Below, piece after piece: positions 29,731-56,940 of a DNA stretch of 64,000 nucleotides. Every line of letters starts with the position of its first letter. Position 1 is the first letter of the stretch. Below the pieces are notes generated by a model that was given only the letters and a program-made list of their open reading frames with translations, was not told the DNA's origin and made no database searches. The stretch lies in assembly GCA_965209055.1 (NCBI GenBank), contig OZ242374.1:1088001-1152000 (forward strand). The letters run 5' to 3'. The translations under genes were made by a program, and so were the position numbers. The DNA comes from Acidobacteriota bacterium (GTDB lineage Bacteria > Acidobacteriota > UBA6911 > RPQK01 > JAJDTT01).

Positions 29731-29885
29731 GAAGGGAGGCCGCCGCTCCCCACCATCTTGACATTCCGAGAGGGCCCAAATTAGAATCCGGTTCCGGAGT
29801 CTTGGTTGGCGCCGGATGGCTGATGAGGCGCCCCGGGACGTAAATCCGCGGTCGGACACATCTTCATCGCTCAAAGCAGACGACA

Positions 29886-30764
29886 TTGTTCAAAGCCGGC
29901 GACACTTACACGCTGATCATCGCGCGTTCCGGGAGGGAAGGCGCCAGGAAGTATTCCGCCTCCGTGGCCCTGACCACCGTGATCGGTCTGCTCGGCGGCG
30001 TCCTGATTCTCTCCTTCATGTTCTCCATGCTCCACTACTGGTGGATGGCGGAACGGACCGTCCACGTGTTCGAGCTCGAGTCGGAGGTCGCCCGCATGCG
30101 GCAGGAAAATGCGGGTCTGAGAGCCGTCTCCGGCAAGTTGACCGACAAGATCTCCTCGCTGGAGGTGACCGCCACCCGGCTCAAGTTTCTCTCCGAGACC
30201 GATGACGACGGCCTGGGCGGCGCCGGTGGTCCCACGAAAGTGGCCCGCCCACTCCTGACCCTGGATCATGGAGACCTCTTGAAGCGTTTCCGGACCCTGG
30301 ACGGGCGGCGGATGACTCTGGAGAGCGAGTTGCGCCGGCTTCAGGACTACTACACGACTCGCAGCATCCTTCAGTCCGCCCTGCCCACCCTGATGCCGGT
30401 GCGGGGGTATCCGTCGGGCGCATACGGCTACCGGAACGACCCCTTCACCGGAAAAAGGGAATTCCATCCCGGAGTCGACATTTCGGCTCCCCGCGGCGCC
30501 AAGGTCGTGGCCACCAGCGACGGCGAGGTGACCCAAGCCGGCTGGCACCACGGGTACGGCCGGTTGGTCACGCTCCGCCACCGTTTCGGCATCGTGACTC
30601 GCTATGGCCATCTGGCCGAGACCAATGTCAAGGTCGGGCAGAAGGTCCAGCGGGGCGACATCGTCGGATACGTCGGTTCCACGGGCCGCACCACCGGCGT
30701 GCATCTCCACTACGAAATCCAGTTGGGCGGCCGCCCGCTGAATCCTGTCCGGTTTTTTCGGTAG
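29886..30764 (+). CDS. M23 family peptidase
   Basis: TM helix and coiled coil; HPGVD (HxxxD); TRYGHL; GRTTGVHLHYE. Confidence 0.9.
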   Translation: MFKAGDTYTLIIARSGREGARKYSASVALTTVIGLLGGVLILSFMFSMLHYWWMAERTVHVFELESEVARMRQENAGLRAVSGKLTDKISSLEVTATRLKFLSETDDDGLGGAGGPTKVARPLLTLDHGDLLKRFRTLDGRRMTLESELRRLQDYYTTRSILQSALPTLMPVRGYPSGAYGYRNDPFTGKREFHPGVDISAPRGAKVVATSDGEVTQAGWHHGYGRLVTLRHRFGIVTRYGHLAETNVKVGQKVQRGDIVGYVGSTGRTTGVHLHYEIQLGGRPLNPVRFFR

Positions 30765-31110
30765 TAGAAGGAGGGGCGATTTCCAATCCCAACCGTCCCT
30801 CAGTCAATAACTACTAAACATTAACGTTTTCAATGGCTTACCGGGTTCTTCGCCGAATCGGTAAAGTGGTTGACTCCCTATGTTTGACGTGCTGAACAGG
30901 CAACAAACAGGCAGCCGCATCGGTTCCTGAACGCCGACAATCTCTTCTCTTTTCCCTTGTTCCCCAGGTTCCATCACATTATGCGTGCGCTGTGTCGATC
31001 TTTGGACAGCGATGCTCGGAAACGCTTGAACCCTGACAAATTCGTTTCCCATTAACAACGGCTTCCCGTCTTCACTCACCTTCATCACAAGGTGATCCTT
31101 GAAAAAATAT

Positions 31111-31671
31111 CTAATTGCCGGACTTCGATTCCAGTCGGCCAGCACCACCCTGGCTCCATTCTCCTCTTTGCGACGGAGGGATCTCGTAAATGCCACCCAT
31201 CTTTGAGCCCATGAAAAACGGGATGGAGACACCGACGGGAAGGGCAATCCCGAATAAAACCTGGGCACTCGGAGCAAAGTCGTCATTCAGGAAACCTGAG
31301 CAAAGCGCCAATCCCAGGCCCAGGGCAACCCATCCAGCCCATCGCTTGCCGAAGTCACGCTCGACCAGCACCTTGCGGATGTCCGGTCGCTGGAACGTCT
31401 GCGACGTCCCATCCGTGGACACGATCGTCATGGACCGGGAGGACGCCCCGTAGAACTGCCCCGTGTACTTGGCAGGGCCGGCACCAAGAGTGTTGTCCTC
31501 ATACAGTTCCACCCGCGTGTTCGCGTTGTCACGGATGTTCTCCAACTTCTCCCAATCCGGCATGTGCCGCGCGACACACCCCGGCAAGACCACTAGGAGC
31601 AGCAAGGGAACCAATCCCGCTGCCATCGTTTTCCGGAACCGCCTGTTGCGCATGCCTTTAAGGATTCTCAT
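31111..31671 (-). CDS. Hypothetical lipoprotein with C-terminal TM hairpin
   Basis: Basic N-terminus, hydrophobic stretch, lipobox VLPGC; two hydrophobic segments near the C-terminus. Confidence 0.65.
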   Translation of the reverse strand: MRILKGMRNRRFRKTMAAGLVPLLLLVVLPGCVARHMPDWEKLENIRDNANTRVELYEDNTLGAGPAKYTGQFYGASSRSMTIVSTDGTSQTFQRPDIRKVLVERDFGKRWAGWVALGLGLALCSGFLNDDFAPSAQVLFGIALPVGVSIPFFMGSKMGGIYEIPPSQRGEWSQGGAGRLESKSGN

Positions 31672-32622
31672 GATGCCACCTCCCAGTCGTGATCAGACTC
31701 GCATCATGAAATGTGTATTTTTCTCCGCAATCGGCTCACTGGGTACGTTCAGATGGCGTGAATTTAGGGAAGGGCTGAACCAGCCTACGGTCCTCTAGCG
31801 GAGAGTCTGACCTCTTCCCTCGCCTTGGCGGGAGATGACTCCGGCTGAGTTTCCCGGGAAGAATGAAGAATGTTGCCATCTGGCCGTCGGCTGCCCGCGA
31901 GAAGCGATTTCCCTAGCCCCTGATGAGCGTCAAGATCACGGTTTCGTGGTACGCATAGGCGTGGAACATCACGCCCGCCAGTGAGCCACCGGCAACAATC
32001 AGGCCGAAGGCGATCAGGGTCATTTCTCATGATTGCCGTTGTGACCTTAATCTCCGGGGACGGTTCCCGGCTTCCCAGGATGGCGTCCGTCCTTCACTAG
32101 AGTCGGATTTGTCCGTTCCTTTGCTCAGCCCGTTCTCTATGGCAGACCGATCCACAGACCTGTTCAGGCAGAAGCGCCGACGGATGGCCGGCGGGGCGGG
32201 TTCCTTGCCTAGCGAAGGTCAAGACCTGGAGACGGATCCCATCCATTGATCCGACGCGCTCGTTGAGGGGAATCTCGGGAGTCTGGACACCCAAACCGAT
32301 CCCGGCGTCCATGAGCTTCGAGCGGACTTGCGCCGGATGGCGAGACTATCGGGTCGGGCCAGTTGAGCAGTATTGAGAACGTTGCAGACGGTCGCTGAGA
32401 CTGTTACGCACTTGGCAGTCGCAAAGGCTGATGGAGGGCCGTTTCGGCTGTGCGAAAAGAGGGTCTCACGCCCGATCCGGGATGTGAATGGGACAAAGGG
32501 GGTGGATTCACAAAAAGCGATCCCGGTGACTCACAAATGCACTCTCCCCGATCTTGTTTCCTTTCAGTCAGTTGCGGCCCTATTTCCGGCCACCGGGTGG
32601 CCGCACGGGGAAAATGGAGGTG

Positions 32623-32719
32623 GACGGGAGCGACCCCCCCTTTTTGCCGCCCGGTGCGGGCGCGGGGGTGTTGCGCGATTCACATCTGCGCAACACCCCC
32701 TGGGGGGGTCGCTCCCGTC
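32623..32719. repeat. Nested inverted-repeat element
   Basis: Perfect 18-bp outer IR (32623-32640 / 32702-32719) enclosing a perfect 13-bp IR (32664-32676 / 32688-32700). Confidence 0.8.
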
Positions 32720-33099
32720 GAATTGATCCCTGCGGGAAGGCCCCTGCGAAGATTTCTGAAGACTTGTTGCGGTCATCCAAGGAGTTCATTCCCCCAACGC
32801 GGCACTTATCCCGGAAACTCTACCTACGAAAGCACCACCGCTTCGGAGTTGGGGGGTCCCTACAAGCTCGAAGAGGGCTCCTAGAATTCGTCCTGCCTGG
32901 GCAAAACCGAAAAGCTCCCCGAGAACCTGGTCTATTGCTCTATCGAGTGGCGGGAGGAGGATTTCCCCGAGAGGCGGAAATAATTCTGGCGAAGGCCATC
33001 TTGATCTGTTACGGAAGTTTTTCGGCGGCGGAAGTGGCACCGCCGTGTGAGCCGCAGAAGGTTACTGAAAATCCTATGGGCCGGCTATGTTGTGGCGTC

Positions 33100-33636
33100 T
33101 CAGTGGTTCTCTCGGCTGTCAGGTTCGTCAGCGCTGCTTGGACCACGAGGGGGGTCGATTCGATCCAGCCGTTTCAGTAACCTGTCGCCCATTTCCCTTA
33201 AGTCGCTACAACGATCACCGTCCGGGTAATTTCTCTCGACCCAACTGACAATCGCGTCCAAGCTATACATCATGTACAAGACATCCACATTTCCGAAAGG
33301 CGAATCGGAATAGTCTTCTGGCGGTTGTGTCAACGGAGGTTGGTCAATCCATTCTGCCCCTCCCTTGGAGTTAAAACCTTGGTCAGGCCAATTTGTTTGC
33401 CATGTGTGAATCAGGGCGTTCTCTAGCAGCCTAATAACTTCTTCGTCTCCCTCAGCTACCACCTTCCAAGAAAATCCATCGGCACCGTATGCTCGGATGG
33501 CTTGGTGGAAAAAGGTATTGTCCACCTCCTTCTTGGCATGGCTTTCGTGCGTACTCCTACGGAGACTCAGCGAGCCCTTGGTGATGCCGACATATCGCCT
33601 CCCACTCTCATTGTGCGTCGCCACGTAGCAGATCAT
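33100..33636 (-). CDS. GIY-YIG nuclease family protein
   Basis: ICYVATHNESGRRYVGIT...LRR..H; FHQAIRAYG...F; conserved E and GFN. Confidence 0.8.
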   Translation of the reverse strand: MICYVATHNESGRRYVGITKGSLSLRRSTHESHAKKEVDNTFFHQAIRAYGADGFSWKVVAEGDEEVIRLLENALIHTWQTNWPDQGFNSKGGAEWIDQPPLTQPPEDYSDSPFGNVDVLYMMYSLDAIVSWVERNYPDGDRCSDLREMGDRLLKRLDRIDPPRGPSSADEPDSRENH

Positions 33637-34116
33637 TGAATCCTTATCCTGTCCAGTCTATCCCTTGCCGGATTCGCGGACCTGGATCGAGCCGCGCCGC
33701 TGGAAGAGGCCTTTAGGGGGGAACTGTTCTACTGGCTACTCAGCGGGGGCAGTGCTCCTCGTTCACCCGCAGGTACTCCACCAGGAACTCGTCGCTCTTC
33801 CTCTCCTGTGTCCGGTCTGGACCCCCAGCCCCCGTTAATCCCCTATATCTGCGACTGGGCGAGGGGAGGGGACGCCACGACACCGCTCCGCTGGGTGGCG
33901 TTCGGAAACGCTCGGAGTTGGACCAGGTCAACAAGGAGTGACACCCGGTCGCGGAGATCCCCGCTCCGTCGCGCTCCGCTGGCGGAGGCTGGACGGACAG
34001 CCACACGCCCATGCCTGACCTTAGTGACGGCCTTTCGAGCCAAGCTGTGCTAAATTTGCCGCGGAAGGGGCGGCACGGATGCTTGACTAAAGGGGACGCT
34101 CAGTGCACACGATCTT

Positions 34117-34161
34117 GCCAGGAGCCAGGAGCCAGGAGCCAGGAGCCAGGAGCCAGGAGCC
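34117..34161 (+). repeat. Heptanucleotide tandem repeat (GCCAGGA)6
   Basis: Six perfect copies plus GCC, just upstream of the LRR gene. Confidence 0.9.
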
Positions 34162-34176
34162 CCGTCGCCTGCCCGT

Positions 34177-37100
34177 TTGATGGCCCGCACCCAGTTGGCG
34201 CCCTTGCTGCCTTTTCCGAAGCATTGCGCTGGCGCTGCCGCCCGGATGGGTGGGGCGATGCTCTCCCGCGCCCGCGGCGGTGTTGGCCTCCGCTGGCGCG
34301 GCTTGGCGATGGCTTTGTCGAGCCCGGTCTTCCTGTTGGGACTGGCAACCGAAGCTGGTGCACAGACCTCTTGCGCGGTGACCGACGTCGCGATCACCGG
34401 CGTGACACCTGCTCCCTCCGACCCCGCGGCGCTGTCCGACGACTGCACCACCCTGCTCGGGCTCATGGACACCTTGCGGGGCACGGCGAGCCTGAACTGG
34501 TCCAATACCCTGAGCATGACCTCGTGGGACGGGATCACCGTAACCGGGAGTCGGGTCACCGCTCTCCTCCTCCATAGCAAGCAACTCACCGGAACGATCC
34601 CGGCGGCCCTGAATAGCCTCACCGGCCTCGAATCCCTCTGGCTCCACACCAACCAACTCAGCGGGAGCATCCCGGACCTGAGCGTCCTGACCGGCCTCCG
34701 AACACTCCTCCTCTCCGACAACGAATTGAGCGGGGGGATTCCCGATCTGAGCGCCCTGACCAATGTGGTCAGTCTCCAGCTCGACAGCAACGAGTTGAGC
34801 GGGAATATTCCGGCAACCCTGAATAGTCTCACCAGCCTGACCACCCTCTCCCTCAACAACAACGAATTGAGCGGGGGGGTTCCCAATCTGAGCGCCCTGA
34901 CCAGCCTGACCACCCTCTCCCTCAACAACAACGAATTGAGCGGGGGGATTCCCAATCTGAGCGCCCTGACCAGCCTGACCACCCTCTCCCTCAACAACAA
35001 CGAATTGAGCGGGAGCATTGACGGCAGCGTTTTCCCGGCCAGCCTCCAAAGACTCATCCTCCACACCAACCAACTCAGCGGGAGCATCCCGGACCTGAGC
35101 GCCCTGACCAGCCTCACTATTCTCTACCTCCACCGCAACCAGCTCAGCGGGAGCATTGACGCCAGCGTTTTCCCGGCCAGCCTCCAAAGACTCGTCCTCA
35201 GTATCAACCAGTTCAGCGGGAGCCTTCCGGATTTTAGCGCCCTGACCAGCCTCGCCTGGCTCCTCGTCTCCGACAACCGATTGAGCGGGAGCATTGACGC
35301 CAGCCATTTCCCGCCCAACCTGATCCTCCTCTACCTCCATAGAAATCAACTCAGCGGGAGCATCCCGGACCTGAGCGCCCTGACCAGCCTCCGACGCCTC
35401 CTCCTCCACCAGAACCAGCTCAGCGGCCCGCTGCCCACATGGTGGAGCAGCCTGCCCGATCTCCAATGGTTGCATCTGGCTGACAACCCCCTTACCGGGG
35501 GGATTCCCAGCCAACTCGGCAGTCTGGCCAACCTGGCCGATCTCTCCCTGTGCGGCACGAATCTGGACGCCACCGCAACGCTGCCGGCGGCCCTCGAGAC
35601 CCGCCGCACGGACGACGACCTGACCGTATGGTCGTGTCTGCGCATCGAGGACGCCAGCGCCCCCGAAGGCAGCGCGCTCAGCTTCATGGTGGAGCACTCG
35701 ACCTATCCGGTGCGGGGGGTGGCCGGGGCCACGGGCGGCCTGACGCTGAGCTACGAGACGGAAGACGGCACGGCCAGCAGCGCCGATTACACCGGCACGG
35801 CGGCGGGCAGCGTGACGATCCCGGCCAACACCGACACCGATGATTCGACGAGCAGCACGGCCATCAGCGTGCCCACGACAGCCGACACTCTTGCCGACGA
35901 TGGTGAGACCCTGACCGTGACCCTGCTGCCGGCCGACCCAGAGGCGGGCTGGGCTCCGGTCTTCCCGCTGCGGCGGACCGCCACCGGGACCATCCTGGCC
36001 GACGATGGTTCTCTGCCGGGGGGGAGACTGGACCTCTCCGGCGGGGGACCGATAGGAAGCACAAGTGCCGTTGACGATCACCCCGGGTCCCAGTTGCTGT
36101 TTCTCGCCGATACGGGAATCGACGCCCGTGCTTATGCTCACTCCGACCCGTTGGCCCCAACGGCCTCCAGGAGCGTCTCAGGATGGCTGGGAGCGACCGA
36201 AGCCGCCCAGCGCAACTTCATCTCCGTCACCAACACTGCGGACGGGCAAGCCGTCACGCTGCTCGTCCAGTACCACAACGACCAGATGGAACCGGTGCTC
36301 TGGTATCTGCGCGTCCTGCGGGCCGGGGCCAACGTCCTGGTCGATCCCTTTCACCACGAGATCCCGGGAACGGACCAGGAAGACGGATCAGGACCGGTGA
36401 ACGTGAGGGAGATCCTCTTCGACGAGATCCCGGCCGTGAGTTTCAAAGACGAGACTGGAAAAGATCGACCCGGGTTCAACTCGGGTCGGTTCCTCATCGC
36501 CGTCACCGCCGTGGGGGCTCGCTCCGAAGAGGACGACCGCGCTCCGGGAGACCCCCCGGAAACGGCCAACGTCCTCTTCCCCGACTTTCTGGCCGAGGGT
36601 CTGCACGGCGCGGACAATATCGACGCCATCGGAGATCTCGGATTCCAGACCGTCGCTCAGTTCGCCACCGACCGACAACCTCAGGAATACGAGAAAGAAC
36701 GTACCGGCCGCAACGTCGGGCCCTTGACGGTTCACAACGTCGAGCCTGTCGCCTTCAACGACCTCGTCGGCCATCACACCGCCGCCGAGGTTTCCGCCCT
36801 CAACGGAGGGATCGCCTGGGGCGTCAACGCCTTGGTGCGCCCCGCCGTCACGGTGGCCAGCGGTGACGGTTCCGACCACCGGATCGGAGTCGCCTACGCG
36901 ATGCTGAACGGCACGAACGAGGCCCGTTTGTCCCCCAGGACGCACGGAGGAGTCGAGGCGGTCAACGCGGCCACCGATGAGGACAACCGGGCGGATGACA
37001 GCGGCGACGGGTCGCCTGTAGCCCTTGATCCGACCCCCACGGAGAACAACCGGGTCGTCAACGGCGGGGCGCTCGTCTGGTCCTCCCTGTACGGCAACGA

Positions 37101-37725
37101 CCCTATGGATCAGAGAGTGCAGTTCCTGTCCGTCGCGGATGACTACGGGGAGCCGGGGGAGTATCGGTTGATCGGTGCGAAAACACTCTACCGGATTCGC
37201 CTGTTCGATCCCAAGGGAAACGAATTGCCGGACCCGGTCTGGGTCCCTCCCGTGTATGGACCCATCGTGCCGCCCCACCTGCCGGGACTCTACCTTCTGG
37301 TCGATGGCATCGGGGTGATGCCGGACGCTTCCCCGATGGGCTGTACCGGAAACCCACGGGTCCAAGGGTGGAGCCTGTCCGACCTGACCGATCTCGTCCC
37401 CACGGTCCGGACCGGCGACGGGGACTTCCAGGGCCTGGATGCCGGGTTGGACCCGAACCGGAACGCCTCTCCCGGGTGGGTGGTGTTCCAGCGGACGACG
37501 ATGACCTGCACCGAGGACTACGGGGACGGAGACCCGTCCGACCTCACCACGATCGAGATTCCGGATGGAGTCCCGACTCAGGACCAGCGATCGTTCATCG
37601 GCGGGACCCTGGTGGTCGAGAAAGAGACCGCCCGCCGGACGTTCGTAACGGCGGGACAGGCCGTCCTGAGGTTCCTGACCCCCAACTCCACCTTCGCCGC
37701 CTCCTGGTGGCTGACCGTGAAATAG
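34177..37725 (+). CDS. Secreted plant-type leucine-rich repeat protein with Calx-beta and the shared C-terminal module; start may be downstream (34258 or 34309)
   Basis: LRR N-cap (LNWS...SWDGITV); about 14 repeats L..L..L.L..N.LSG.IP; Calx-beta (YETEDGTASSADY); C-terminus paralogous to 3462..5960. Confidence 0.88.
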   Translation: MMARTQLAPLLPFPKHCAGAAARMGGAMLSRARGGVGLRWRGLAMALSSPVFLLGLATEAGAQTSCAVTDVAITGVTPAPSDPAALSDDCTTLLGLMDTLRGTASLNWSNTLSMTSWDGITVTGSRVTALLLHSKQLTGTIPAALNSLTGLESLWLHTNQLSGSIPDLSVLTGLRTLLLSDNELSGGIPDLSALTNVVSLQLDSNELSGNIPATLNSLTSLTTLSLNNNELSGGVPNLSALTSLTTLSLNNNELSGGIPNLSALTSLTTLSLNNNELSGSIDGSVFPASLQRLILHTNQLSGSIPDLSALTSLTILYLHRNQLSGSIDASVFPASLQRLVLSINQFSGSLPDFSALTSLAWLLVSDNRLSGSIDASHFPPNLILLYLHRNQLSGSIPDLSALTSLRRLLLHQNQLSGPLPTWWSSLPDLQWLHLADNPLTGGIPSQLGSLANLADLSLCGTNLDATATLPAALETRRTDDDLTVWSCLRIEDASAPEGSALSFMVEHSTYPVRGVAGATGGLTLSYETEDGTASSADYTGTAAGSVTIPANTDTDDSTSSTAISVPTTADTLADDGETLTVTLLPADPEAGWAPVFPLRRTATGTILADDGSLPGGRLDLSGGGPIGSTSAVDDHPGSQLLFLADTGIDARAYAHSDPLAPTASRSVSGWLGATEAAQRNFISVTNTADGQAVTLLVQYHNDQMEPVLWYLRVLRAGANVLVDPFHHEIPGTDQEDGSGPVNVREILFDEIPAVSFKDETGKDRPGFNSGRFLIAVTAVGARSEEDDRAPGDPPETANVLFPDFLAEGLHGADNIDAIGDLGFQTVAQFATDRQPQEYEKERTGRNVGPLTVHNVEPVAFNDLVGHHTAAEVSALNGGIAWGVNALVRPAVTVASGDGSDHRIGVAYAMLNGTNEARLSPRTHGGVEAVNAATDEDNRADDSGDGSPVALDPTPTENNRVVNGGALVWSSLYGNDPMDQRVQFLSVADDYGEPGEYRLIGAKTLYRIRLFDPKGNELPDPVWVPPVYGPIVPPHLPGLYLLVDGIGVMPDASPMGCTGNPRVQGWSLSDLTDLVPTVRTGDGDFQGLDAGLDPNRNASPGWVVFQRTTMTCTEDYGDGDPSDLTTIEIPDGVPTQDQRSFIGGTLVVEKETARRTFVTAGQAVLRFLTPNSTFAASWWLTVK

Positions 37726-37857
37726 GCGGGGGAGTCTTTTCCTGCCGGACGTTCCTGGACGGACCTCCCGGGGGCGGTCATGGGCGAGGCGAATCTGCGC
37801 GGCGCATTTCTGGACGGAGCGCGGAGCCGCCGGACAACCCCTCCTGAAAAGTTTTTA

Positions 37858-37884
37858 GGTCCGATAAAATCCACTTATCGGACC
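37858..37884. other. Palindromic recombination-site-like sequence
   Basis: GGTCCGATAA-aatccac-TTATCGGACC: perfect 10-bp arms with a 7-bp spacer. Confidence 0.55.
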
Positions 37885-37932
37885 CTGATCCGATCCCAGA
37901 GGGTCGTGGCTTTCCTCCCGCCGGCGCGCCGC

Positions 37933-38125
37933 CTACTGGGTGAGTGAGGGAACCGACGGAGCGGATGGCTCGACAATGAGGACGCCCCGCGCCAGCCCGA
38001 AGTTAAGATCCGGCCACGCCTCCTTGATCTTCTTCAACTTGCGGAGCGACCTCTTCCGAGAGTTATTGGCGGCCGCTTTGTCACCGGCCTTGGCGGGGTT
38101 CACGCCAAACTGGCGGTAGAAGTTG
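37933..38125 (-). pseudogene. C-terminal fragment resembling a plasmid RepA (RepA_C-type) protein
   Basis: YRQFGVNPAKAGDK...RKLKKIKEAWPDLNFGLARGVLIVEPS.PSVP*; recalled similarity only; the 5' part is replaced by the integrase upstream region. Confidence 0.5.
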
Positions 38126-38177
38126 CTGCCGGGTCCTCGCCCTGGAGGACTTGAACGCCGACGTTGATTTGCTTGAG

Positions 38178-38227
38178 CCGTGGTAGGATTCGCACCACGG
38201 CGAAGAACCCGGATCCAGAAAGGAGGA
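38178..38227 (+). promoter_or_regulatory. Integrase promoter and RBS with overlapping inverted repeat
   Basis: Extended -10 TGgTAGGAT (TGgTACGAT in the second copy) inside CCGTGG..N..CCACGG; AGGAGG RBS; conserved in both integrase copies. Confidence 0.6.
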
Positions 38228-38232
38228 GATGC

Positions 38233-39348
38233 ATGGGCATCTACAAGGTGAAGGATCGCCGGGGGAGACGACGTTTCGTCGTCAGCAAGTACTGGCCGAA
38301 CGGATCCGGTCGGCTCAGAATGTACGCCCCCAACTACCGGAGCGCACAGGCGCTTCAAACACGAATCGAGTCCAGCATCCTGGACGGCACCTGGAAGCAG
38401 CTCAAGGAGGAGCTCGCCGGCGGGAAACGCTCCATCTGGACGGTCCAGAGCTTCTACAAGCGTTTTCTCGAGGAGTACTGCAAACCTCGTCTGCGCTCCT
38501 GGCGGAGCTATGAGGGTTCGTTCAAGAGCCTCAACTCCATGCTGGGGAACATTCCCCTGAAGGAGTTCCAACGCAAAGACCTGCACCGCTACGTCGCCCA
38601 GAGGAAGAAGCAAGTCAAACCGGCCACGGTGAACCGCGCCATTGCCGCCATCAGCAAGCTGTTTTCCTACGCGCTGGAGTGCGGAGAGGTGGACACGCAC
38701 CCGTTGATTCGGTTCCCCAAACTGAAGGAGCCGAAGAAGGTCTTCCGGCCTTTGACGGTCCAGCAGTTCCGCGACCTGGTCGAGGCGGTGGAGAATCCCT
38801 ACCTGCAAGCCATGATCGCGGCGATCGGCGAGACGGGGATACGAAAAGGCGAAGCTTTGTCGCTCACCTGGAAACGGGTGGACCTATCCCGGAGGCTGCT
38901 ATGGGTGGAATTCACCAAGAACGACAGGACGAGGGAGATACCGCTGTCGCAGTACGCCACCGGATATCTGGCAGGGCTCCCACGGTACCTGAACACCTCA
39001 TATGTCTTTGTCAACAGCAGGACCGGGACGAGATGGGTGAATCCCGACATGCCACTGCGCCGGGCCGGCGAGAGGGTCGGCTTGGAGGTCGGATTTCACG
39101 ACCTGCGGCGATTCCGGTGCAGCCACTGGCTGATGCAGGGGGTGGACGTGAGGACGGTGCAGAAGCTGATGGGCCACTCGGCGATCAGCACGACCATGCG
39201 GTATGCGGGGTACGTCAGTTCTCATGCGCTGGCCAGCATTCGGGAGGCACAGGCTAACGAAGACTCCCAAACGCAACCGGCAACAAACAGGCAACGAGTA
39301 AGAACCAAGAGGGAGCATTTAGAGGGGAGAATTGGGATAAACTGTTGA
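38233..39348 (+). CDS. Tyrosine recombinase/integrase, copy 1
   Basis: Full catalytic set: TGIRKGE, TKN, FHDLRR, MGH, TMRY; N-terminal arm-binding-like and SAM-like regions. Confidence 0.93.
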   Translation: MGIYKVKDRRGRRRFVVSKYWPNGSGRLRMYAPNYRSAQALQTRIESSILDGTWKQLKEELAGGKRSIWTVQSFYKRFLEEYCKPRLRSWRSYEGSFKSLNSMLGNIPLKEFQRKDLHRYVAQRKKQVKPATVNRAIAAISKLFSYALECGEVDTHPLIRFPKLKEPKKVFRPLTVQQFRDLVEAVENPYLQAMIAAIGETGIRKGEALSLTWKRVDLSRRLLWVEFTKNDRTREIPLSQYATGYLAGLPRYLNTSYVFVNSRTGTRWVNPDMPLRRAGERVGLEVGFHDLRRFRCSHWLMQGVDVRTVQKLMGHSAISTTMRYAGYVSSHALASIREAQANEDSQTQPATNRQRVRTKREHLEGRIGINC

Positions 39349-39390
39349 AAATACAGGACCAATCCCCTATCTCATCTGGACAGAGTAACG

Positions 39391-39472
39391 GATTTCCAAT
39401 CGCCCGTTCTTGCGTCGCTACGGTGAAATGCGAAGATCGGCGGTTGGGAAACCGCCGCCCCGCCCCCCCCCC
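39391..39472. repeat. Right part of the interrupted REP doublet
   Basis: GATTTCCAATCGCCC, spacer, CGGCGGTTGGGAAACCGCCGCCCC; same layout as the intact copy at 51010-51090 (reverse strand). Confidence 0.8.
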
Positions 39473-39806
39473 AGAGGACGGGTGAGGCCGCCGGGTTCCC
39501 ACCCTGATTCTGCGAAGCAAATGTACTTCCGGCGACCTCACCCGATCCAGTCGAAAACGGAGTCTCGGGTCCTCTTCCCAAAGCAACTTCGGGGCCAAAC
39601 CCGGTCCGGGAGGCGCGAGCCATCCATCAGATCCGGCCTTTGCTGGTAAACTGGCGGAAGGTTGCTGCGGCCGGAACGTGACTCCGGACCGGGAGTTGTT
39701 CTCTGGCCGGGGGCTCGTTCCAAGAAATGTCTTTTTGCGGCGAAGACATCGACCGGCCCTTGGAAAATCAGACCGAAAACGACTTTTCTTTAGACTTTCA
39801 GACGGT

Positions 39807-40385
39807 ATGGAGCATCCTCATCAAACAGGCAGGAGGATGAGTTTCAGCGACGAGAACTTGCTCCGATTGGCATTGGCCGGCGACGGCGGCTGTTTCGGCG
39901 AATTGGTGACCCGGTGGGAACGGAGGATCTACGGCTTCATCTTCCGCTACGTCGGCGATCGTGAGGAAGCCCGCGATCTGACCCAGGAGACCTTCGCCAA
40001 GGCGTACAAGAACCTGGGACGCCTGTCCGATCCCGGGAAATTTTCCTCCTGGCTCTACAAGATCGCCCTCAACGAGTGCCGGATGCGTTTCCGCCGGCGC
40101 CGTTGGGATACCGTGCCTCTGCCGGAGTCGGTCGAGGCGACTCTGGAAAAAGCCGACGAGCCGACGCCCGAGCAGGCTCTGGCCTCCAAGGAGAGGGTTC
40201 AACTGCTGCGGGAAACGCTGTTGAAGCTGCCCGAGGAACAGAAGACGGTCATCTTGATGAAAGAGTACCAGGGCCTGAAGTTTCGCGAGATCGCTCAGAT
40301 CCTGGATCTGCCCCTTTCCACCGTGAAATCACGCATGTATTTGGGATTGAAGACGTTGAGAAGATTGATGGAGAAGAGACTATGA
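39807..40385 (+). CDS. ECF RNA polymerase sigma-70 factor
   Basis: EARDLTQETF; FSSWLYKIALN; region 4 LKFREIAQILDLPLSTVKSRM. Confidence 0.92.
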   Translation: MEHPHQTGRRMSFSDENLLRLALAGDGGCFGELVTRWERRIYGFIFRYVGDREEARDLTQETFAKAYKNLGRLSDPGKFSSWLYKIALNECRMRFRRRRWDTVPLPESVEATLEKADEPTPEQALASKERVQLLRETLLKLPEEQKTVILMKEYQGLKFREIAQILDLPLSTVKSRMYLGLKTLRRLMEKRL

Positions 40386-40942
40386 ACTGCACGACCATGC
40401 ACGAGCGGATGATGGACGTCCTCTACGGAGAGGAGTTGGACCCCGGTCGCTGCCTGGAGTTCTTCCGCCACCTGGAGAGTTGCCCCGATTGCAAGGCCGA
40501 ATACCTGGAGCTGGTGGAGACCCGTTCGCTGCTGGCCCAGTGGGACCTGGGGCAGGCGGTTCCCGAGGTCCGCGCCGGCGCCGGCGGCAAGGTCAGCCTC
40601 TTTCTCCGCAGAATCGACCGCAGTCCGGCCTGGAGAGCCGTCTACAAGGCGGCGGCGTGCATCCTGATTCTCCTTGGGATGACGGTCATCGCCCGGGATC
40701 TGGGCTGGACGGAGCGGGCCGTCCTGGAGGTGAGCCGCCAGGAACTGGAGACCATGATCAACGACGTGGCGGTCGCCCGTCAGGAGGAGGAGCGGCGCCT
40801 CATCGGACAGGCTCTGATCCAGGTGCGCGACGACCTGGAGCGGGACATCGGCCAGGTCCATCGGTATCTGCAGGTCCTGGACCTGCAGCAGAGGGATGCA
40901 CAGGAGGACTACCGGGCCGTGCGCGCCCTGATCACGCGCTGA
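40382..40942 (+). CDS. Zinc-binding (zf-HC2) transmembrane anti-sigma factor
   Basis: MNC...HLESCPDC (HxxxCxxC); one TM helix; ATGA overlap with the sigma gene. Confidence 0.85.
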   Translation: MNCTTMHERMMDVLYGEELDPGRCLEFFRHLESCPDCKAEYLELVETRSLLAQWDLGQAVPEVRAGAGGKVSLFLRRIDRSPAWRAVYKAAACILILLGMTVIARDLGWTERAVLEVSRQELETMINDVAVARQEEERRLIGQALIQVRDDLERDIGQVHRYLQVLDLQQRDAQEDYRAVRALITR

Positions 40943-50216: not shown

Positions 50217-51010
50217 GGCAGGGAATCGTTTTGCTCAACCTGTTGCTGGTGGCGGGCGTCGGCCTGCTGGGAGAGCGCCTGATCTCGAATTGGCGCCATT
50301 TCCAGGAGTCCACCCGTCAGGAGGTCTATCAGCGGATCAACCGGAGTCCCGAGCGGCCGGAGGAAGCGTCGTTCCGGCAGGAACCGGCGCGGCCCATCAA
50401 CCACTACCTGGAGATCCACGAGCGGAACCTCTTCAACCCCGAACGCCGGCCGGAGGAGGAGGAGGCCGGCGCGGAGGAGATCGCCGTCCAGAAGCCCCCT
50501 CCACTGCCCATCAAGCCGACGCTGCACGGCGTCTCCACCATCCGCGGCGAGCAGAGGGCGTTTCTGACCGTTTTCGCGGGGAAGAAGAACCAGGGCGAGT
50601 CCCGGACGGTGATGCTGGGAGACATGGTGCAGGGGTACCGGGTGGGCGAGATCACGCCGACCACGGTCACGCTGGTATGGAATCATCACACCGAGCTGAT
50701 TGACATCATGGACTCCAGGAAGGGCAAGCAGCCCAAGAAATCGGCGGCCAACAAGGGCGGCGCCGGCGCGGTCAACATCGTGACCGTCGGCTCCACCCGG
50801 GCTGCGGTGGAGACGGTGGCCGCATCGGTCCCGCCCGCCGAAGAGGGGGCGCGCGCGGCCGTGAGTCCCGCCGCCGGCCAACAACGGGTCCGGTCCGGCG
50901 GAGCCGCCGCCCGGGGCCGAACCACCCTCACGGGCCGCCAGGGCGCCGCCCGCGGCCGCACCAGCACCGCCAGGCGTTCCGTCTATGGCACCGCCGCGAC
51001 CCGGAGATGA
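50213..51010 (+). CDS. GspC/PilP-like protein
   Basis: N-terminal TM helix; RNLFNPERRP; LHGV....GD.VQGYRVGEI....V. Confidence 0.65.
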   Translation: MRQGIVLLNLLLVAGVGLLGERLISNWRHFQESTRQEVYQRINRSPERPEEASFRQEPARPINHYLEIHERNLFNPERRPEEEEAGAEEIAVQKPPPLPIKPTLHGVSTIRGEQRAFLTVFAGKKNQGESRTVMLGDMVQGYRVGEITPTTVTLVWNHHTELIDIMDSRKGKQPKKSAANKGGAGAVNIVTVGSTRAAVETVAASVPPAEEGARAAVSPAAGQQRVRSGGAAARGRTTLTGRQGAARGRTSTARRSVYGTAATRR

Positions 51011-51090
51011 GGAGGGGGGGCGGGGGCGGCGGTTTCCAACCGCCGATTCTTATATCCCATGCGAATCACGCGATCGGAAATCGCCCCTCC
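51010..51090. repeat. Intact REP doublet (empty equivalent of the island target)
   Basis: CGGCGGTTTCCAACCGCCG, spacer, GCGATCGGAAATCGCCCCTCC. Confidence 0.85.
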
Positions 51091-53891: not shown

Positions 53892-54848
53892 ATGAGGCGC
53901 GCAGCGTCTGCCGCACTGTTGCTGGCCTGGCTCGGTCCGTCCGCCGCCTCAGCCGCTTCTCCCCACCCGGTCCGCCTCGTCAAGACCGACGCGGCGCGGG
54001 TGGACATCTACGCCGGCGAGGCCCTGTTCGCCTCCTACCACTACGGCATCGGCCTGCACAAACCCATCCTCCATCCCCTGCGCAGTCCCGGAGGACACCG
54101 GATCACCAGGGGATTCCCCATGGTGTTCGGCATCCCCGGCGAGCAGACCGACCACTGGCAACACGAAGGCGTCTTCCTCACCTACCGCAACGTCAACGGC
54201 GTTGACTTCTGGTCCAAGTTTCCCCCCACGCGAGACCGGCCCGGCAGCGGCCGGATCCGCCACACCGGCTTCACCCGCCTGGAGGGCGGAGAAAAGGGCA
54301 TCCTGGGGACCACTGCCGACTGGATCGCCCCCACCGGCAAAGTCCTGCTGAAACAGGACTCTCAAATGACCATCCGAGCGGGACCCGACTGGCGAACCCT
54401 GGATCTTCAGATCACCCTGACCGCCCGGGACGAGCCGGTCACCTTCGGCGACATCGAAGAAGGCCTGCTGGCCATCCGCGTCGCCTCCGGCCTGCGCGAG
54501 GACCGCACCGGCCGCTACCTCAACGCCGAAGGCCTGGAGCTGGCGAAAAACGTCTGGGGCAAGAGGTCGCCCTGGGTGGCCCTGCGCGGAACCGTCCGGG
54601 ACGAGGACCTCACCCTGGCCATCCTGAACCACCCCCGCAGCGTCCGATTTCCCACTTACTGGCACGCCCGCGCCTACGGCCTCTTCGCCGCCAACCCCTT
54701 CGGCCGCGCCGATTTCGAAAAGGGCGCTCCGCCCCTGAACTACTCCCTGTCCCCCGGCGAATCGGCCCTCCTCCTCTACCGCATCCTCATCCACTCCGGC
54801 CACCTCACCCGCTCCCGGATCGAGGACGAGTTCCGCAAATACCGATAG
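53892..54848 (+). CDS. Exported PmoA-like/DUF6807 family protein
   Basis: Signal peptide; KPILHPL; DHWQHEG; VNGVDFW; WHARAYGLFAANPFG. Confidence 0.75.
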   Translation: MRRAASAALLLAWLGPSAASAASPHPVRLVKTDAARVDIYAGEALFASYHYGIGLHKPILHPLRSPGGHRITRGFPMVFGIPGEQTDHWQHEGVFLTYRNVNGVDFWSKFPPTRDRPGSGRIRHTGFTRLEGGEKGILGTTADWIAPTGKVLLKQDSQMTIRAGPDWRTLDLQITLTARDEPVTFGDIEEGLLAIRVASGLREDRTGRYLNAEGLELAKNVWGKRSPWVALRGTVRDEDLTLAILNHPRSVRFPTYWHARAYGLFAANPFGRADFEKGAPPLNYSLSPGESALLLYRILIHSGHLTRSRIEDEFRKYR

Positions 54849-55563
54849 CAGGGGCGGTTTTCCTACCGCTCCGTGTCAGGCGAGTTGGCCGTCGATCGGC
54901 AAGCCAGCTCTCCTGCACCCTCTCGAAAAGAAGAAATTCCCCATCTCTCAATCCGGCTTTTTCCGGGTTCTCGCGGATGTATTCCAGACACTTCATGAAA
55001 TGCATCTCGTCCCTGATCAATCGGTCCCAATAATCCTTTTCCCAGAGCTTGCCCGACCTTCCGGTCTTCCGATTGATCTGACGAGCCGTAAACAGCTTCC
55101 AGGACCTTAGAATGTCTCCGAGCCGATGAGATCCAAGAGGTCTGAACAGCACATGAACGTGGTTGGGCATTACGACGAACGCGGCCAGTTCGTATCGTTG
55201 GCCGTCAAAGAATCGCAGTGCGTCAGCGACGATCCTGGACAATGCGGGATCCCTGAGGATGCAGGACCCGCTGCCTTGATCCAAACAGTTGTCAATCCGT
55301 CCGGAGAAACGTTTGCGGTAGCGTTTCGCCGTCTCAGAGTTCCAAGGTCGAGGATTTCGTTTCAACCAGAATTCGCGCTCCTCCCGCCACTGAGCCAGTT
55401 TGATTTGGGGAAGCGAATCTCCCAGCCGCCAGGTCACAAAAACGAATGTGTGATCCTGTTGCCAGTGGGGCAGGCGATTTTGGCGAACATCCCCGGGTCC
55501 ATAGGGGTCGAAATAGAATCGGGAGCGCGTTCCTTGCCGAACATTCTCGGGATCACGTGACAC
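54805..55563 (-). CDS. REP-associated tyrosine transposase (RAYT, HUH Y1)
   Basis: LPHW...FVTWRL; FVVMPNHVH (HUH); W.KDYWDRLIRDE; catalytic EYIRENP; REPs on both sides (54849-54872 and 55605-55783). Confidence 0.9.
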   Translation of the reverse strand: MSRDPENVRQGTRSRFYFDPYGPGDVRQNRLPHWQQDHTFVFVTWRLGDSLPQIKLAQWREEREFWLKRNPRPWNSETAKRYRKRFSGRIDNCLDQGSGSCILRDPALSRIVADALRFFDGQRYELAAFVVMPNHVHVLFRPLGSHRLGDILRSWKLFTARQINRKTGRSGKLWEKDYWDRLIRDEMHFMKCLEYIRENPEKAGLRDGEFLLFERVQESWLADRRPTRLTRSGRKTAPAIGICGTRPRSGSG

Positions 55564-55604
55564 ATAGTCCCAAACGTCACCAAAGCAAAAACAACGAAAT
55601 CGAT

Positions 55605-55783
55605 GGGGGGGCGGGGGCGGGGGCGGCGGTTTCCCAACCGCCGAATCCCGAGCAGCAGGAGAACAGGAGCGATGCCGGGCGATTAGGAAATCGCCCCTCC
55701 GAAGGAGAACACGCGCAGTACCGGGCGATTAGGAAATCGCCCTTCCGAAGGAAAACACGCGCAGTGCCAAGCGATTAGAAATC
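55605..55783. repeat. REP array upstream of RAYT; last unit interrupted by island 2
   Basis: CGGCGGTTTCCCAACCGCCG, then GGGCGATTAGGAAATCGCCC x2 in ~46-bp tandem units; third unit stops at GCGATTAGAAATC. Confidence 0.85.
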
Positions 55784-55833
55784 CTTTACTCTGTCCAACG
55801 GAGTCATGGGATTTATCCTGTCTTTTCAACAAG

Positions 55834-56940
55834 TTATCCTGATACTCCTCTCAAATTGTTCCCCTTGGCTCTTACCCGTTGCCTGTTTGTTGCCTGTTGC
55901 GTTTGGGAGTCTTCGTTAGCCTGTGCCTCCCGAATGCTCTGGAGCGCATGGGAACTGACGTACCCGGCGTAGCGCATAGTCGTGCTGATCGCCGAGTGTC
56001 CCATCAACTTCTGGACCGTTCTCACGTCCACACCCTGCATCAGCCAGTGGCTGCAGCGGAATCGTCTCAGATCGTGAAATCCGACCTTCAAGCCGACCCT
56101 CTCGCCAGCCCGGCGCAGTGGCATGTCGGGATTCACCCATCTCGTCCCGGTCCGGCTGTTGACGAAGACGTAAGGGATGTTCAGGTAGCGAACCAGTCCA
56201 GCCAGATATCCGGTGGCATACTTCGAGATCGGAATCTCCCTCGGCTCGTCGTTCTTGGTGAGTTCCACCCAGAGTAATCCGCGCCCTAGGTCCACCCGTT
56301 TCCAGGTCAGCGACAATGCTTCTCCCTTTCGGATGCCCGTCTCGCCGATCACTGCAATCATGGCTTGCAGGTAGGGATTGTCCGCCGCCTCGACGAGGTC
56401 GCGGAACTGTTGAACCGTCAAAGGCCGGAAGACCTTCTTGGGCTCCTTCAGTTTGGGGAACCGAACCAGCGGGTGCGTGTCCACCTCTCCGCACTCCAGC
56501 GCGTAGGAAAACAGCTTGCTGATGGCGGCAATGGCGCGGTTCACCGTGGCCGGCGCGACCTGTTTCTTCCTCTGGGCGACGTAGCGGTGCAGGTCTTTGC
56601 GTTGGAACTCCTTCAGGGGAATGTTCCCCAGCATGGCATTGAGGCTCTTGAACGAACCCTCATAGCTCCGCCAGGAGCGCATGCGAGGTTTGCAATACTC
56701 CTCGAGAAATCGCTCGTAGAAGCTCCGGACCGTCCAGACGGTGCGTTTCCCACCGGCGAGCTCCCTCTTGAGCTGCTTCCAGGTGCCGTCCAGGATGCTG
56801 GACTCGATTCGTGTTTGAAGCGCCTGTGCGCTCCGGTAGTTGGGGGCGTACATTCGGAGCCGACCGGATCCGTTCGGCCAGTACTTGCTGACGACGAAAC
56901 GTCGTCTCCCCCGGCGATCCTTTACCTTGTAGATGCCCAT
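55834..56940 (-). CDS. Tyrosine recombinase/integrase, copy 2
   Basis: Near-identical to 38233..39348 with intact R-K-H-R-H-Y residues; AGGAGG RBS. Confidence 0.93.
   Translation of the reverse strand: MGIYKVKDRRGRRRFVVSKYWPNGSGRLRMYAPNYRSAQALQTRIESSILDGTWKQLKRELAGGKRTVWTVRSFYERFLEEYCKPRMRSWRSYEGSFKSLNAMLGNIPLKEFQRKDLHRYVAQRKKQVAPATVNRAIAAISKLFSYALECGEVDTHPLVRFPKLKEPKKVFRPLTVQQFRDLVEAADNPYLQAMIAVIGETGIRKGEALSLTWKRVDLGRGLLWVELTKNDEPREIPISKYATGYLAGLVRYLNIPYVFVNSRTGTRWVNPDMPLRRAGERVGLKVGFHDLRRFRCSHWLMQGVDVRTVQKLMGHSAISTTMRYAGYVSSHALQSIREAQANEDSQTQQATNRQRVRAKGNNLRGVSG

What the first reader, a model, noticed from the sequence alone, without database searches (positions are those of the whole stretch)
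30771..39472. Tyrosine-integrase island that uses a REP palindrome as its attachment site
Seen: GATTTCCAATC occurs at 30778-30788 and 39391-39401, with an intact integrase ending 43 bp before the right copy. Removing the intervening DNA gives GGAG-GGGCGATT-TCC-AATCGCCC followed by the second hairpin CGGCGGTTGGGAAACCGCCG. This is the same REP doublet found uninterrupted at 51010-51090 and 55605-55700. The predicted circular junction is also palindromic (GGATT-TCC-AATCC). Known: integrative islands mostly target single-copy tRNA/tmRNA or housekeeping genes, while REP targeting is described for IS3 and IS110 family elements (IS1397, IS621). Inference: this integrase family reads a multicopy RAYT-associated repeat as attB, giving it many safe intergenic landing sites. 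I do not recall this being described for a tyrosine-integrase island.
Basis: partly seen in the sequence, partly recalled or inferred. Interest (0 to 1): 0.92.

Follow-up and report, generated by a model that had tools for sequence, protein, structure and literature searches.

The report
Integrase elements that insert into REP hairpins
This 8.6-kb island is one of about 25 related mobile elements in one sponge-associated bacterial genome that carry their own integrase and insert into the loops of short repeated DNA palindromes, a habit that seems to have evolved from inserting into a transfer-RNA gene.

Summary
The 11-bp repeat lies at 30778-30788 and 39391-39401, and the integrase ends 42 nt before the right copy.

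The island is not a one-off.
- The genome (an uncultured Acidobacteriota MAG) holds 26 full-length paralogous integrases.
- 25 complete elements of 2.7-25 kb share the same ends. The left end is about 150 bp; the right end is the integrase plus about 45 bp.
- Removing each of the 25 rebuilds a perfect palindrome. Random genome positions do so 3.9% of the time.

Empty sites exist.
- A congener carries the intact REP at the orthologous locus.
- A metagenome contig joins 30779 to 39393 precisely.

The shortest identity between the two junctions is the 7-nt hairpin loop.

The right end is a degenerate 5' half of tRNA-Arg. A congener's relative sits in the tRNA-Arg(UCU) anticodon loop in the same register. 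On a midpoint-rooted tree (the rooting is assumed) it branches below the REP-associated clade.

Conserved repeats about 105-120 bp either side of the core look like arm-type sites.

Cargo is mostly restriction or CRISPR genes.

Six literature searches found no precedent. This is a new variant of lambda-type integration. No circular form or activity was shown.

The parts
30771..30788 (+). attL: the left arm of the REP hairpin from the chromosome plus the shared 11-bp identity block (30778-30788)
   Evidence: The same hybrid junction occurs 4 times in the genome, equal to the number of type-A elements.
30789..30938 (+). Conserved left end of the element, found as 30 copies in the genome. It holds two candidate arm-type sites AACAGGCA at 30895-30902 and 30906-30913.
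   Evidence: 30 left ends at 79-100% identity; motif at +108/+119 in 24 of 25 elements and at +119 in all 25
32406..32743 (+). Conserved structured non-coding module, present once and in the same orientation in every element. Function unknown.
   Evidence: 25 of 25 elements; no frame open across 43 copies; z -4.7 and -6.1; 14 of 60 pairs with changes on both sides; no Rfam family above threshold
33100..33636 (-). Cargo ORF with a borderline GIY-YIG nuclease match
   Evidence: 22.4 bits against a cut-off of 22.6
34177..37725 (+). Cargo: 1182-aa leucine-rich-repeat protein
   Evidence: LRR_4 4.2e-29, LRR_8, LRR_1. A 1115-aa LRR protein sits in the sister element.
38233..39348 (+). Tyrosine integrase. 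A candidate arm-type site, ACAGGCA, lies inside its 3' end at 39287-39293.
   Evidence: Phage_integrase 4.9e-26; aligns with XerA/XerC-like 4a8e at 3.2e-16, with the GxR, HxxR, GHS and Y positions matching
39361..39399 (+). Right end: a degenerate 5' half of tRNA-Arg (D arm plus 5' anticodon stem) running into the loop-like core
   Evidence: 29 of 38 positions match the host's own tRNA-Arg(tct), against 16 for tRNA-Asn or tRNA-Gly
39391..39458 (+). attR: identity block 39391-39401, the right arm of the REP hairpin, a spacer, and the second REP hairpin 39439-39458
   Evidence: The empty-site contig resumes at 39393.
55771..56940 (-). Second family member in the window. Its integrase is at 55834-56940(-) and its attR at 55771-55783 lies in a REP array. 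Its left end lies beyond the window, at genome position 1156399.
54805..55770 (-). Y1_Tnp (RAYT-like) ORF at 54805-55563(-), followed by a REP array at 55605-55770
   Evidence: 29.7 bits, cut-off 23

Best explanation
The island is an integrated member of a family of self-encoded, lambda-type site-specific integrative elements. Their chromosomal attachment site is the stem-loop of a REP-like palindrome.

Each element has the same layout:
- a conserved left end;
- a structured non-coding module;
- variable cargo;
- a tyrosine integrase gene;
- a roughly 45-bp right end that is a degenerate 5' half of tRNA-Arg.

Proposed mechanism (inferred, not shown). In the circular form the two ends join into an attP. 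Its core is a small palindrome around a 7-nt loop-like spacer. Paired AACAGGCA repeats lie about 105-120 bp away on both sides and would serve as arm-type sites. The integrase would bind the two inverted stems of the REP as core-type sites and exchange strands at the edges of the 7-nt loop, which acts as the overlap region. The sequence of that loop would set both which palindromes are usable and the orientation of insertion.

The family appears to descend from integrases that recombine in the anticodon loop of tRNA-Arg. On that reading, REP hairpins with similar 7-nt loops are mimics of that site.

Shown here: the structure of the junctions, the empty sites, the multiplicity of copies, the tRNA homology, and the phylogenetic order under a midpoint root.

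Inferred: the cleavage positions, the role of the arm sites, and current activity.
For: Family in this genome
- 26 full-length integrase paralogues at 81-100% amino-acid identity.
- 30 conserved left ends and 29 right-end matches, pairing into 26 elements.
- 25 of 25 complete elements rebuild perfect palindromes, against 3.9% at random positions.

Junction identity
- The identity between the two junctions is 7-15 bp.
- Where it is shortest, in 4 of the 25 elements, it is exactly the 7-nt loop (TTTCCTA or TTTCCAA).

Orientation
- Two groups use the same palindrome in opposite orientations. Only the central 3 nt of their cores are inverted.
- Their integrases intermingle in one starred clade.

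Target counts
- Intact type-A target: 80 copies.
- Hybrid junctions: 4 + 4, equal to the number of type-A elements.

Empty sites
- 7 of 7 congeners have the two flanks 29-423 bp apart.
- G001 carries the intact REP there.
- A 6016-bp contig of run X1 skips 8613 bp between 30779 and 39393.

Other species
- 9 of 9 elements in G004, G005 and G007 rebuild palindromes.

tRNA ancestry
- Right ends match tRNA-Arg(tct) at 25-31 of 38 positions, against 14-18 for tRNA-Asn and tRNA-Gly.
- The G003 relative (82% identity) regenerates an intact tRNA-Arg(tct). It leaves the displaced 5' half at its left junction in the same register.
- On a midpoint-rooted tree the tRNA-associated integrases branch outside a 99/93-supported clade of 29 REP-associated ones.

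Arm-type candidates
- AACAGGCA stands at fixed distances in 25 of 25 left ends and 25 of 25 right ends. There are 0-3 copies elsewhere in each element.

Recent movement
- Two 2756-bp elements are 100% identical at loci with different flanks.

Catalytic domain
- It aligns with solved Xer-type recombinases.
Against: - No circular junction and no excision product from the same strain was seen. The runs were available only as contigs, which drop rare forms.
- No excisionase or other directionality factor was recognised. The minimal 2.7-kb elements show no second conserved ORF.
- The N-terminal 80 residues match no Pfam arm-binding family, so the heterobivalent model rests on the DNA repeats alone.
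- For the commonest target palindrome, only 8 intact copies stand against 15 occupied ones. 'Abundant REP' therefore holds for the type-A target but not for all types.
- Extragenic placement of the targets was not tested genome-wide.
- The genome is a metagenome-assembled one (contamination 7.4%). One element is cut by the contig end, so the copy number could be slightly off.
- The tree is rooted at the midpoint only, and the outgroup branches are long.
Confidence: 0.88

Rival explanations
1. The palindrome halves belong to the element as terminal inverted repeats, and the 11-bp repeat is a target-site duplication made by a transposase-like reaction at arbitrary sites.
For: The flanks next to the ends are similar from copy to copy. 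For the commonest type, occupied sites outnumber intact ones, 15 to 8.
Against: - The empty sites in G001 and in run X1 carry an intact palindrome with a single copy of the repeat.
- 80 intact copies of the type-A palindrome exist with no element nearby.
- Beyond the hairpin the right flank continues into the usual second REP hairpin.
- The only recombinase conserved in all copies is a tyrosine integrase, which makes no target duplications. That last point is established knowledge, not tested here.
Confidence: 0.03
2. The elements were placed or copied by homologous recombination between dispersed REP copies, or REPs accumulated at island borders afterwards. On this view the integrase does not read the REP.
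For: REPs are known substrates for homologous recombination; a reference to Kofoid et al. 2003 was seen only in the reference list of PMC3390384. REP arrays lie next to several elements.
Against: - Both junctions are hybrids. One REP arm is joined to an element-specific arm that differs from the REP arm, at the same register in 25 of 25 elements.
- The break lies inside the 7-nt loop, and there is no full REP at either end for recombination to use.
- The core of the element changes together with the target type. The orientation follows the central 3 nt.
- A relative uses the tRNA-Arg anticodon loop in the same register.
Confidence: 0.04
3. The integrase recombines folded single-stranded hairpins (an extruded or replicating REP), as integron integrases do with attC, rather than a double-stranded palindrome.
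For: The targets are strong hairpins. The arms tolerated differ in sequence while the loop is kept: the same integrase clade uses arms of GCGA type and of GGGGGT type. That would fit recognition of shape.
Against: - The closest relatives use a tRNA anticodon stem-loop, the classical double-stranded core site. That is established knowledge (Williams 2002), seen here only as a reference.
- Both junctions keep complete duplex hybrids with no sign of replicative resolution.
- Similarity to IntI4 covers only 54 residues at 1.2e-7.
- Nothing tested here discriminates directly between the two.
Confidence: 0.05

Closest known systems
Genomic islands and tycheposons that integrate into tRNA genes through tyrosine integrases (anticodon-loop sublocation; tRNA-Arg(tct) is one tycheposon target)
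   Same: A tyrosine integrase sits at one end and a partial tRNA copy lies at the junction. The elements are small and carry cargo, often defence genes. A congener's family member sits in tRNA-Arg(tct) itself. Passages of the tycheposon preprint 10.1101/2020.12.28.424599 were read.
   Different: The window's element and 24 others in this genome are in no tRNA gene. They use repeated palindromes, so there are many sites per genome instead of one per integrase. There are 25 copies per genome, against the 1-2 per genome stated for tycheposons. The word 'palindrom' does not occur in that preprint.
REP-targeting insertion sequences (ISPsy8, ISPa11, ISPpu9/10, ISRm22/19; IS1397 and IS621 recalled)
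   Same: They insert specifically into REP palindromes, using a multi-copy intergenic sequence as a safe landing site. The abstract of Tobes & Pareja 2006, PMC1525189, was read.
   Different: Those use IS transposases. For IS621 a bridge RNA is involved (PMC11208160, search listing only). Here the enzyme is a tyrosine integrase with attP-like ends. No internal match of 9 nt or more to the target recurs in the conserved backbone, and the 5 smallest elements have none. The elements also carry up to 25 kb of cargo.
Lambda-type heterobivalent integrases (core sites around a 7-bp overlap, plus arm-type sites)
   Same: The core is inverted arms around a 7-nt spacer. Identity in that spacer is shared by attP and attB. 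Repeated motifs lie about 105-120 bp either side of the core.
   Different: Arm binding, accessory factors and a directionality factor are not identified. The N-terminus has no family match. attB is a repeat family rather than a unique locus.
Integron integrase with attC hairpins
   Same: A tyrosine recombinase acts on repeated imperfect palindromes and moves cargo cassettes.
   Different: There is no attI or cassette array. Each element carries its own integrase. Similarity to IntI4 is weak and partial. Single-stranded recombination is not indicated.

Membership tests
Tyrosine recombinase (phage integrase) superfamily | Catalytic domain with the conserved Arg, His-x-x-Arg, His and Tyr positions | tested here: met
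   Pfam PF00589 at 4.9e-26. The alignment to 4a8e shows GIR/GLR, HDLRR/HQLRH, GHS/GHS and a terminal Y aligned. The naming of these residues as catalytic is recalled, not taken from a call.
Lambda-type heterobivalent integrase system | Arm-type sites in attP, away from the core, on both sides | tested here: inconclusive
   AACAGGCA repeats stand at +108/+119 and about -104/-115 in 25 of 25 elements. Binding was not tested.
Lambda-type heterobivalent integrase system | N-terminal arm-binding domain | tested here: inconclusive
   Residues 1-80 match no Pfam family even at E-value 10. No structure was predicted.
tRNA-gene integrative islands (anticodon-loop sublocation) | attB lies inside a tRNA gene, which the element regenerates | tested here: not met
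   ARAGORN finds 0 tRNA genes in the window. The flanks form a REP hairpin. The feature is met only by the G003 and G010 relatives.
REP (repetitive extragenic palindromic) sequences, as the target | Short imperfect palindrome in many copies per genome | tested here: met
   The type-A hairpin has 132 loose and 80 exact copies. The partner hairpin has 201 copies, and there are 99 doublets. The commonest other target has only 8 intact copies.
REP (repetitive extragenic palindromic) sequences, as the target | Extragenic location and association with a RAYT (Y1 transposase) | tested here: inconclusive
   Two Y1_Tnp matches in the genome, at 30.8 and 23.6 bits. One is a 252-aa ORF beside a REP array, on one side only. 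Extragenic placement was seen in the examples but not counted genome-wide.
IS110/IS621-type REP-targeting elements | DEDD transposase and a guide (bridge) RNA complementary to the target | tested here: not met
   The only conserved protein is a tyrosine integrase. No recurring internal match of 9 nt or more to the target was found in the backbone. No Rfam family was found.
Integrons | IntI-type integrase with attI and an array of attC cassettes | tested here: not met
   The match to IntI4 covers 54 residues only. Each element has its own integrase and unique flanks.
Tycheposons | Membership of the tycheposon integrase clade, with its replication module | not tested
   No tycheposon sequence was compared. 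The resemblance is by architecture only.

The most novel reading that the evidence does not exclude
A lineage of tRNA-Arg anticodon-loop integrases has turned into a site-specific 'transposon' system. It reads the 7-nt loop of REP-type hairpins as the overlap region and tolerates different stems. Changing a few loop bases in attP would then create new target specificities and orientations. At least five loop types occur among integrases more than 80% identical. The elements would thereby spread defence systems and eukaryote-like repeat proteins to dozens of intergenic sites in sponge-symbiont genomes. If the loop alone sets specificity, these would be naturally re-targetable integrases.
Probability: 0.45. 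Interest if true: 0.88.

Novelty: new variant of a known kind. Interest (0 to 1): 0.8.

Why it matters
Integrative islands are thought of as tied to one or a few unique sites, mostly tRNA genes. Multi-copy REP targeting has been a property of insertion sequences.

This family shows a tyrosine-integrase element that has apparently left its tRNA site for a repeat family. It has multiplied to about 25 copies per genome. It has split into several target specificities while the integrases stay 81-100% identical.

That makes it a natural series for asking how att-site specificity evolves. The pieces available for comparison are the stems, the 7-nt overlap and the inversion of the overlap.

It also offers candidate integrases that land in many safe intergenic sites.

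Finally, it suggests how restriction-modification, GmrSD, CRISPR-Cas and LRR or fn3 genes are shuffled within sponge-associated Acidobacteriota.

Tried and rejected
- Chance repeat: rejected.
- Guide-RNA targeting of the IS621 kind: I looked for internal copies of each element's own target (9 nt or more) in its interior. None recurs in the conserved backbone, and the 5 smallest elements have none. Three closely related type-D elements share a 10-mer inside the integrase gene, which I take as shared descent.
- Second protein gene in the minimal element (excisionase): no frame stays open across 43 copies of the conserved module. Ten small ORFs of the window element gave no meaningful Pfam match; the only one listed was a chance-level LIME1 match at E 0.098.
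- Rfam: only one sub-threshold hit, 30 bits against a gathering score of 53.
- Arm-binding domain by Pfam: nothing.
- Circular junction in public runs: none listed, but all four runs were contigs, which cannot show rare forms. This is no evidence against excision. Parts of the island without cover in X3 and X7 are likewise no finding.
- Run X3 joints (30767 or 30788 to 39438, with 12 or 37 letters between) look like empty sites with a diverged spacer. Only 20-22 letters lie on the shorter side, so I do not count them.
- The 26th element (genome 6074478) was dropped from all counts because the contig end cuts its right end. Four solitary left ends (416692, 474734, 484587, 4708653) and several integrase fragments were not analysed further.
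- Cargo survey: 20 of the 98 ORFs of 200 aa or more listed were scanned. They were chosen among the largest. The 1333-aa ORF fetched as L129 was not scanned.
- Loci L023-L102 were used only for their record titles (organism).
- Literature searches found no tyrosine-integrase element described as targeting REPs. Only open-access papers and preprints are covered, and supplements were closed.
- G016 (unpublished) appears only in the tallies.

Full report
**1. The observation**

The 11-mer GATTTCCAATC stands at 30778-30788 and 39391-39401 and nowhere else in the window. With one mismatch allowed there are 6 matches against 0.92 expected.

The ORF ending at 39348 is a tyrosine recombinase (Phage_integrase 4.9e-26, with SAM-like N-terminal domains).

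The DNA left of 30778 and right of 39401 forms the two arms of a hairpin. A second hairpin follows at 39439-39458. Both hairpin kinds are repeated through the genome. There are 132 and 201 loose matches, 80 exact copies of the 15-nt core of the first, and 99 doublets.

G+C falls from about 0.67-0.70 outside to 0.52-0.60 in the left third of the island.

**2. It is a family, not a single island**

The window lies in a 6.08-Mb single-contig genome. Record titles of close relatives call them uncultured Acidobacteriota MAGs. The runs that hold the sequence are mostly labelled sponge metagenomes.

- tblastn finds 26 full-length copies of the integrase at 81-100% amino-acid identity, plus fragments.
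- 23 of the 26 keep the MGIY start. Three have their first roughly 25 codons displaced by an insert.
- BLAST of the island against the genome shows three conserved pieces: a left end of about 150 bp (30789-30938), a 340-bp module (32406-32743), and the integrase with its downstream 45 bp.
- There are 30 left ends and 29 right-end matches. They pair into 26 elements of 2.7 to 25 kb, leaving four solitary left ends.
- One of the 26 is cut by the contig end and was dropped.
- A second member lies in the window itself. Its integrase is at 55834-56940 on the minus strand. Its right junction at 55771-55783 lies in a REP array beside a Y1_Tnp-like ORF.

**3. Every element splits a palindrome**

For each of the 25 complete elements I removed the DNA between the two junctions in a script. 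All 25 gave a perfect palindrome centred on the junction. Arms were 5-16 bp, and 20 of 25 had arms of 8 bp or more. Of 200,000 random genome positions, 3.9% had arms of 5 or more and 0.12% had arms of 8 or more.

Target types differ:

| Type | Elements | Target | Junction identity |
|---|---|---|---|
| A (includes this island) | 4 | abundant REP, loop TTTCCAA | 11 bp |
| A variant | 1 | loop TTTCTAA | 11 bp |
| A variant | 1 | same TTTCCAA loop, quite different G-rich stems | 7 bp |
| D | 4 | loop TTTCCTA | 7 bp in three |
| B | 8 | one G-rich palindrome, centre GTT | 15 bp |
| C | 7 | the same palindrome, opposite orientation, centre AAC | 14 bp |

- Where the identity is shortest it is exactly the 7-nt loop.
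- The hybrid junction motifs of type A occur 4 + 4 times, the number of type-A elements. The predicted circular core occurs 0 times.
- The B/C palindrome has 8 intact copies against 15 occupied.

**4. Empty sites**

- The orthologous locus was found in 7 congeners: M23 peptidase on the left and an ECF-type sigma factor on the right. In all 7 the two flanks are 29-423 bp apart.
- In G001 the intergenic DNA carries the intact type-A hairpin, followed by the same spacer start as in the window.
- G007 has a variant doublet, G008 has other REPs, and four have none. This intergenic region is fluid.
- Independently, run X1, which belongs to a different study from the best holder X19, has a 6016-bp contig that lies on 29753-30779 and continues at 39393-40600. 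The joint skips 8613 bp, and 9 letters fit either side. That is the signature of a single copy of the repeat.
- X19 contigs stop at 30797 and start at 39374, as expected at the borders of a multi-copy repeat.

**5. Other species**

In G004, G005 and G007 I read both junctions of 9 elements. All 9 rebuild palindromes, including further loop types. G004 alone has 29 left-end matches and 30 integrase matches.

**6. Origin from a tRNA-Arg site**

- The 45 bp after the integrase look like a tRNA D arm and anticodon stem.
- Against the first 38 nt of the host's own tRNAs, the 25 right ends match tRNA-Arg(tct) at 25-31 positions. They match tRNA-Asn and tRNA-Gly at 14-18.
- In congener G003 an integrase 82% identical is followed by a complete tRNA-Arg(tct), called by ARAGORN.
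- The single family left end in G003, 47 kb away, is preceded by a displaced 5' half of that tRNA, ending in the anticodon loop in the same register as the REP junctions.
- A 69%-identical integrase in another genus abuts tRNA-Arg(tcg). Three at about 50% abut tRNA-Arg(tct), or a fragment of it, in the opposite orientation.
- In a maximum-likelihood tree of 34 integrases, rooted at the midpoint, these tRNA-associated ones branch successively outside a clade (support 99/93) of 29 REP-associated ones.
- Within that clade, type D, type A (with congeners) and types B plus C form groups. B and C intermingle.
- The long outgroup branches and the midpoint root are caveats.

**7. Mechanism**

The integrase aligns over its catalytic domain with solved Xer-type recombinases. 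The conserved Arg, His-x-x-Arg, His and Tyr positions match. Their catalytic role is recalled knowledge.

The motif AACAGGCA occurs in all 25 left ends, at +119 and in 24 of them also at +108. It occurs in all 25 right ends at about -103, often with a second copy. There are 0-3 copies elsewhere in each element. I read these as arm-type sites of an attP of about 250 bp.

The core would be the two short inverted arms around a 7-nt overlap, corresponding to anticodon-loop positions 32-38 of the ancestral site. Orientation following the central 3 nt fits the overlap rule of tyrosine recombinases.

All of this is inference from sequence. No directionality factor was found. The N-terminus has no family match.

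Two 2756-bp elements are identical at loci with different flanks. The window's integrase has an identical protein copy in a sister element that is 94-96% identical in DNA. This suggests recent movement.

**8. Content**

All 25 elements carry the 340-bp module once, in the same orientation.

- No frame in it is conserved.
- It folds strongly (z -4.7 and -6.1).
- An alignment of 39 distinct copies shows 14 of 60 predicted pairs with changes on both sides.
- No Rfam family matches.
- Its role is unknown.

Of the 20 large cargo ORFs scanned (out of 98 listed):

- 15 are restriction-modification, GmrSD or CRISPR-Cas proteins;
- one is an LRR protein;
- one is an fn3 protein;
- one is a DDE transposase;
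- two have no match.

The window's element carries a 1182-aa LRR protein and a borderline GIY-YIG ORF.

**9. Comparison and novelty**

REP-specific insertion is documented for insertion sequences (abstract of PMC1525189). tRNA-targeting cargo elements with tyrosine recombinases include tycheposons, which use seven tRNA or tmRNA genes, among them Arg(tct), at 1-2 elements per genome (passages of 10.1101/2020.12.28.424599).

Six full-text searches, with passages read, gave no description of a tyrosine-integrase element using REPs as attB. Subscription journals and supplements were not covered.

I file this as a new variant of lambda-type site-specific integration. It is not a member of the tRNA-island class for this element. 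It is not an integron and not an IS110-type system.

**10. Verdict**

The wider picture is more interesting than a single island. It comprises a radiating, REP-loop-targeting integrase family, apparently derived from a tRNA-Arg integrase, that carries defence genes. Activity remains to be shown.

Noticed in passing
window 32406-32743 (and 42 other copies in the genome): A 340-bp structured non-coding module is present in all 25 elements, and at least 15 further copies lie outside them. It has a branched hairpin with compensatory changes, no conserved ORF and no Rfam family. Read depth over it in run X19 is about 50 times the flank depth.
   Followed up: partly
genome 784075-785694, 3708491-3710110, 5305980-5307599 (outside the window): In three elements the first roughly 25 codons of the integrase are displaced about 1.9 kb by an insert. 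The insert holds a 539-aa ORF with no Pfam match. It may be an unrecognised insertion sequence with a preferred site in this gene.
   Followed up: partly
window 54805-55563 (-) and 55605-55770: A 252-aa ORF with a weak Y1_Tnp (IS200-like) match sits beside an array of one G-rich hairpin and three type-A hairpins. It is a candidate RAYT for this REP family. REPs were seen on one side only.
   Followed up: partly
window 57127-58083 (+): A DDE_Tnp_1/DUF772 transposase ORF lies inside the second integrase element of the window, so an insertion sequence is nested in the cargo.
   Followed up: no
genome ends (6077063-6077182 and 1-160): The single contig ends inside the right end of a family element and its start does not continue it. 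The assembly is therefore broken, or mis-circularised, in this repeat.
   Followed up: partly
genome-wide element cargo (for example 2191004-2196609 and 3911316-3915771): The elements carry complete-looking Type I restriction-modification operons, GmrSD, Type IIG/ISP enzymes and a Cas3 plus GSU0054-family pair. The family acts as a carrier of defence genes.
   Followed up: partly
window 23860-29730 (+): A 1956-aa ORF lies just upstream of the M23 peptidase gene. It was not examined.
   Followed up: no
type-D elements, 729 nt before their right ends: Three related type-D elements share a 10-nt match to their own target inside the integrase gene. It is probably shared descent, but it was not tested against a control.
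   Followed up: no
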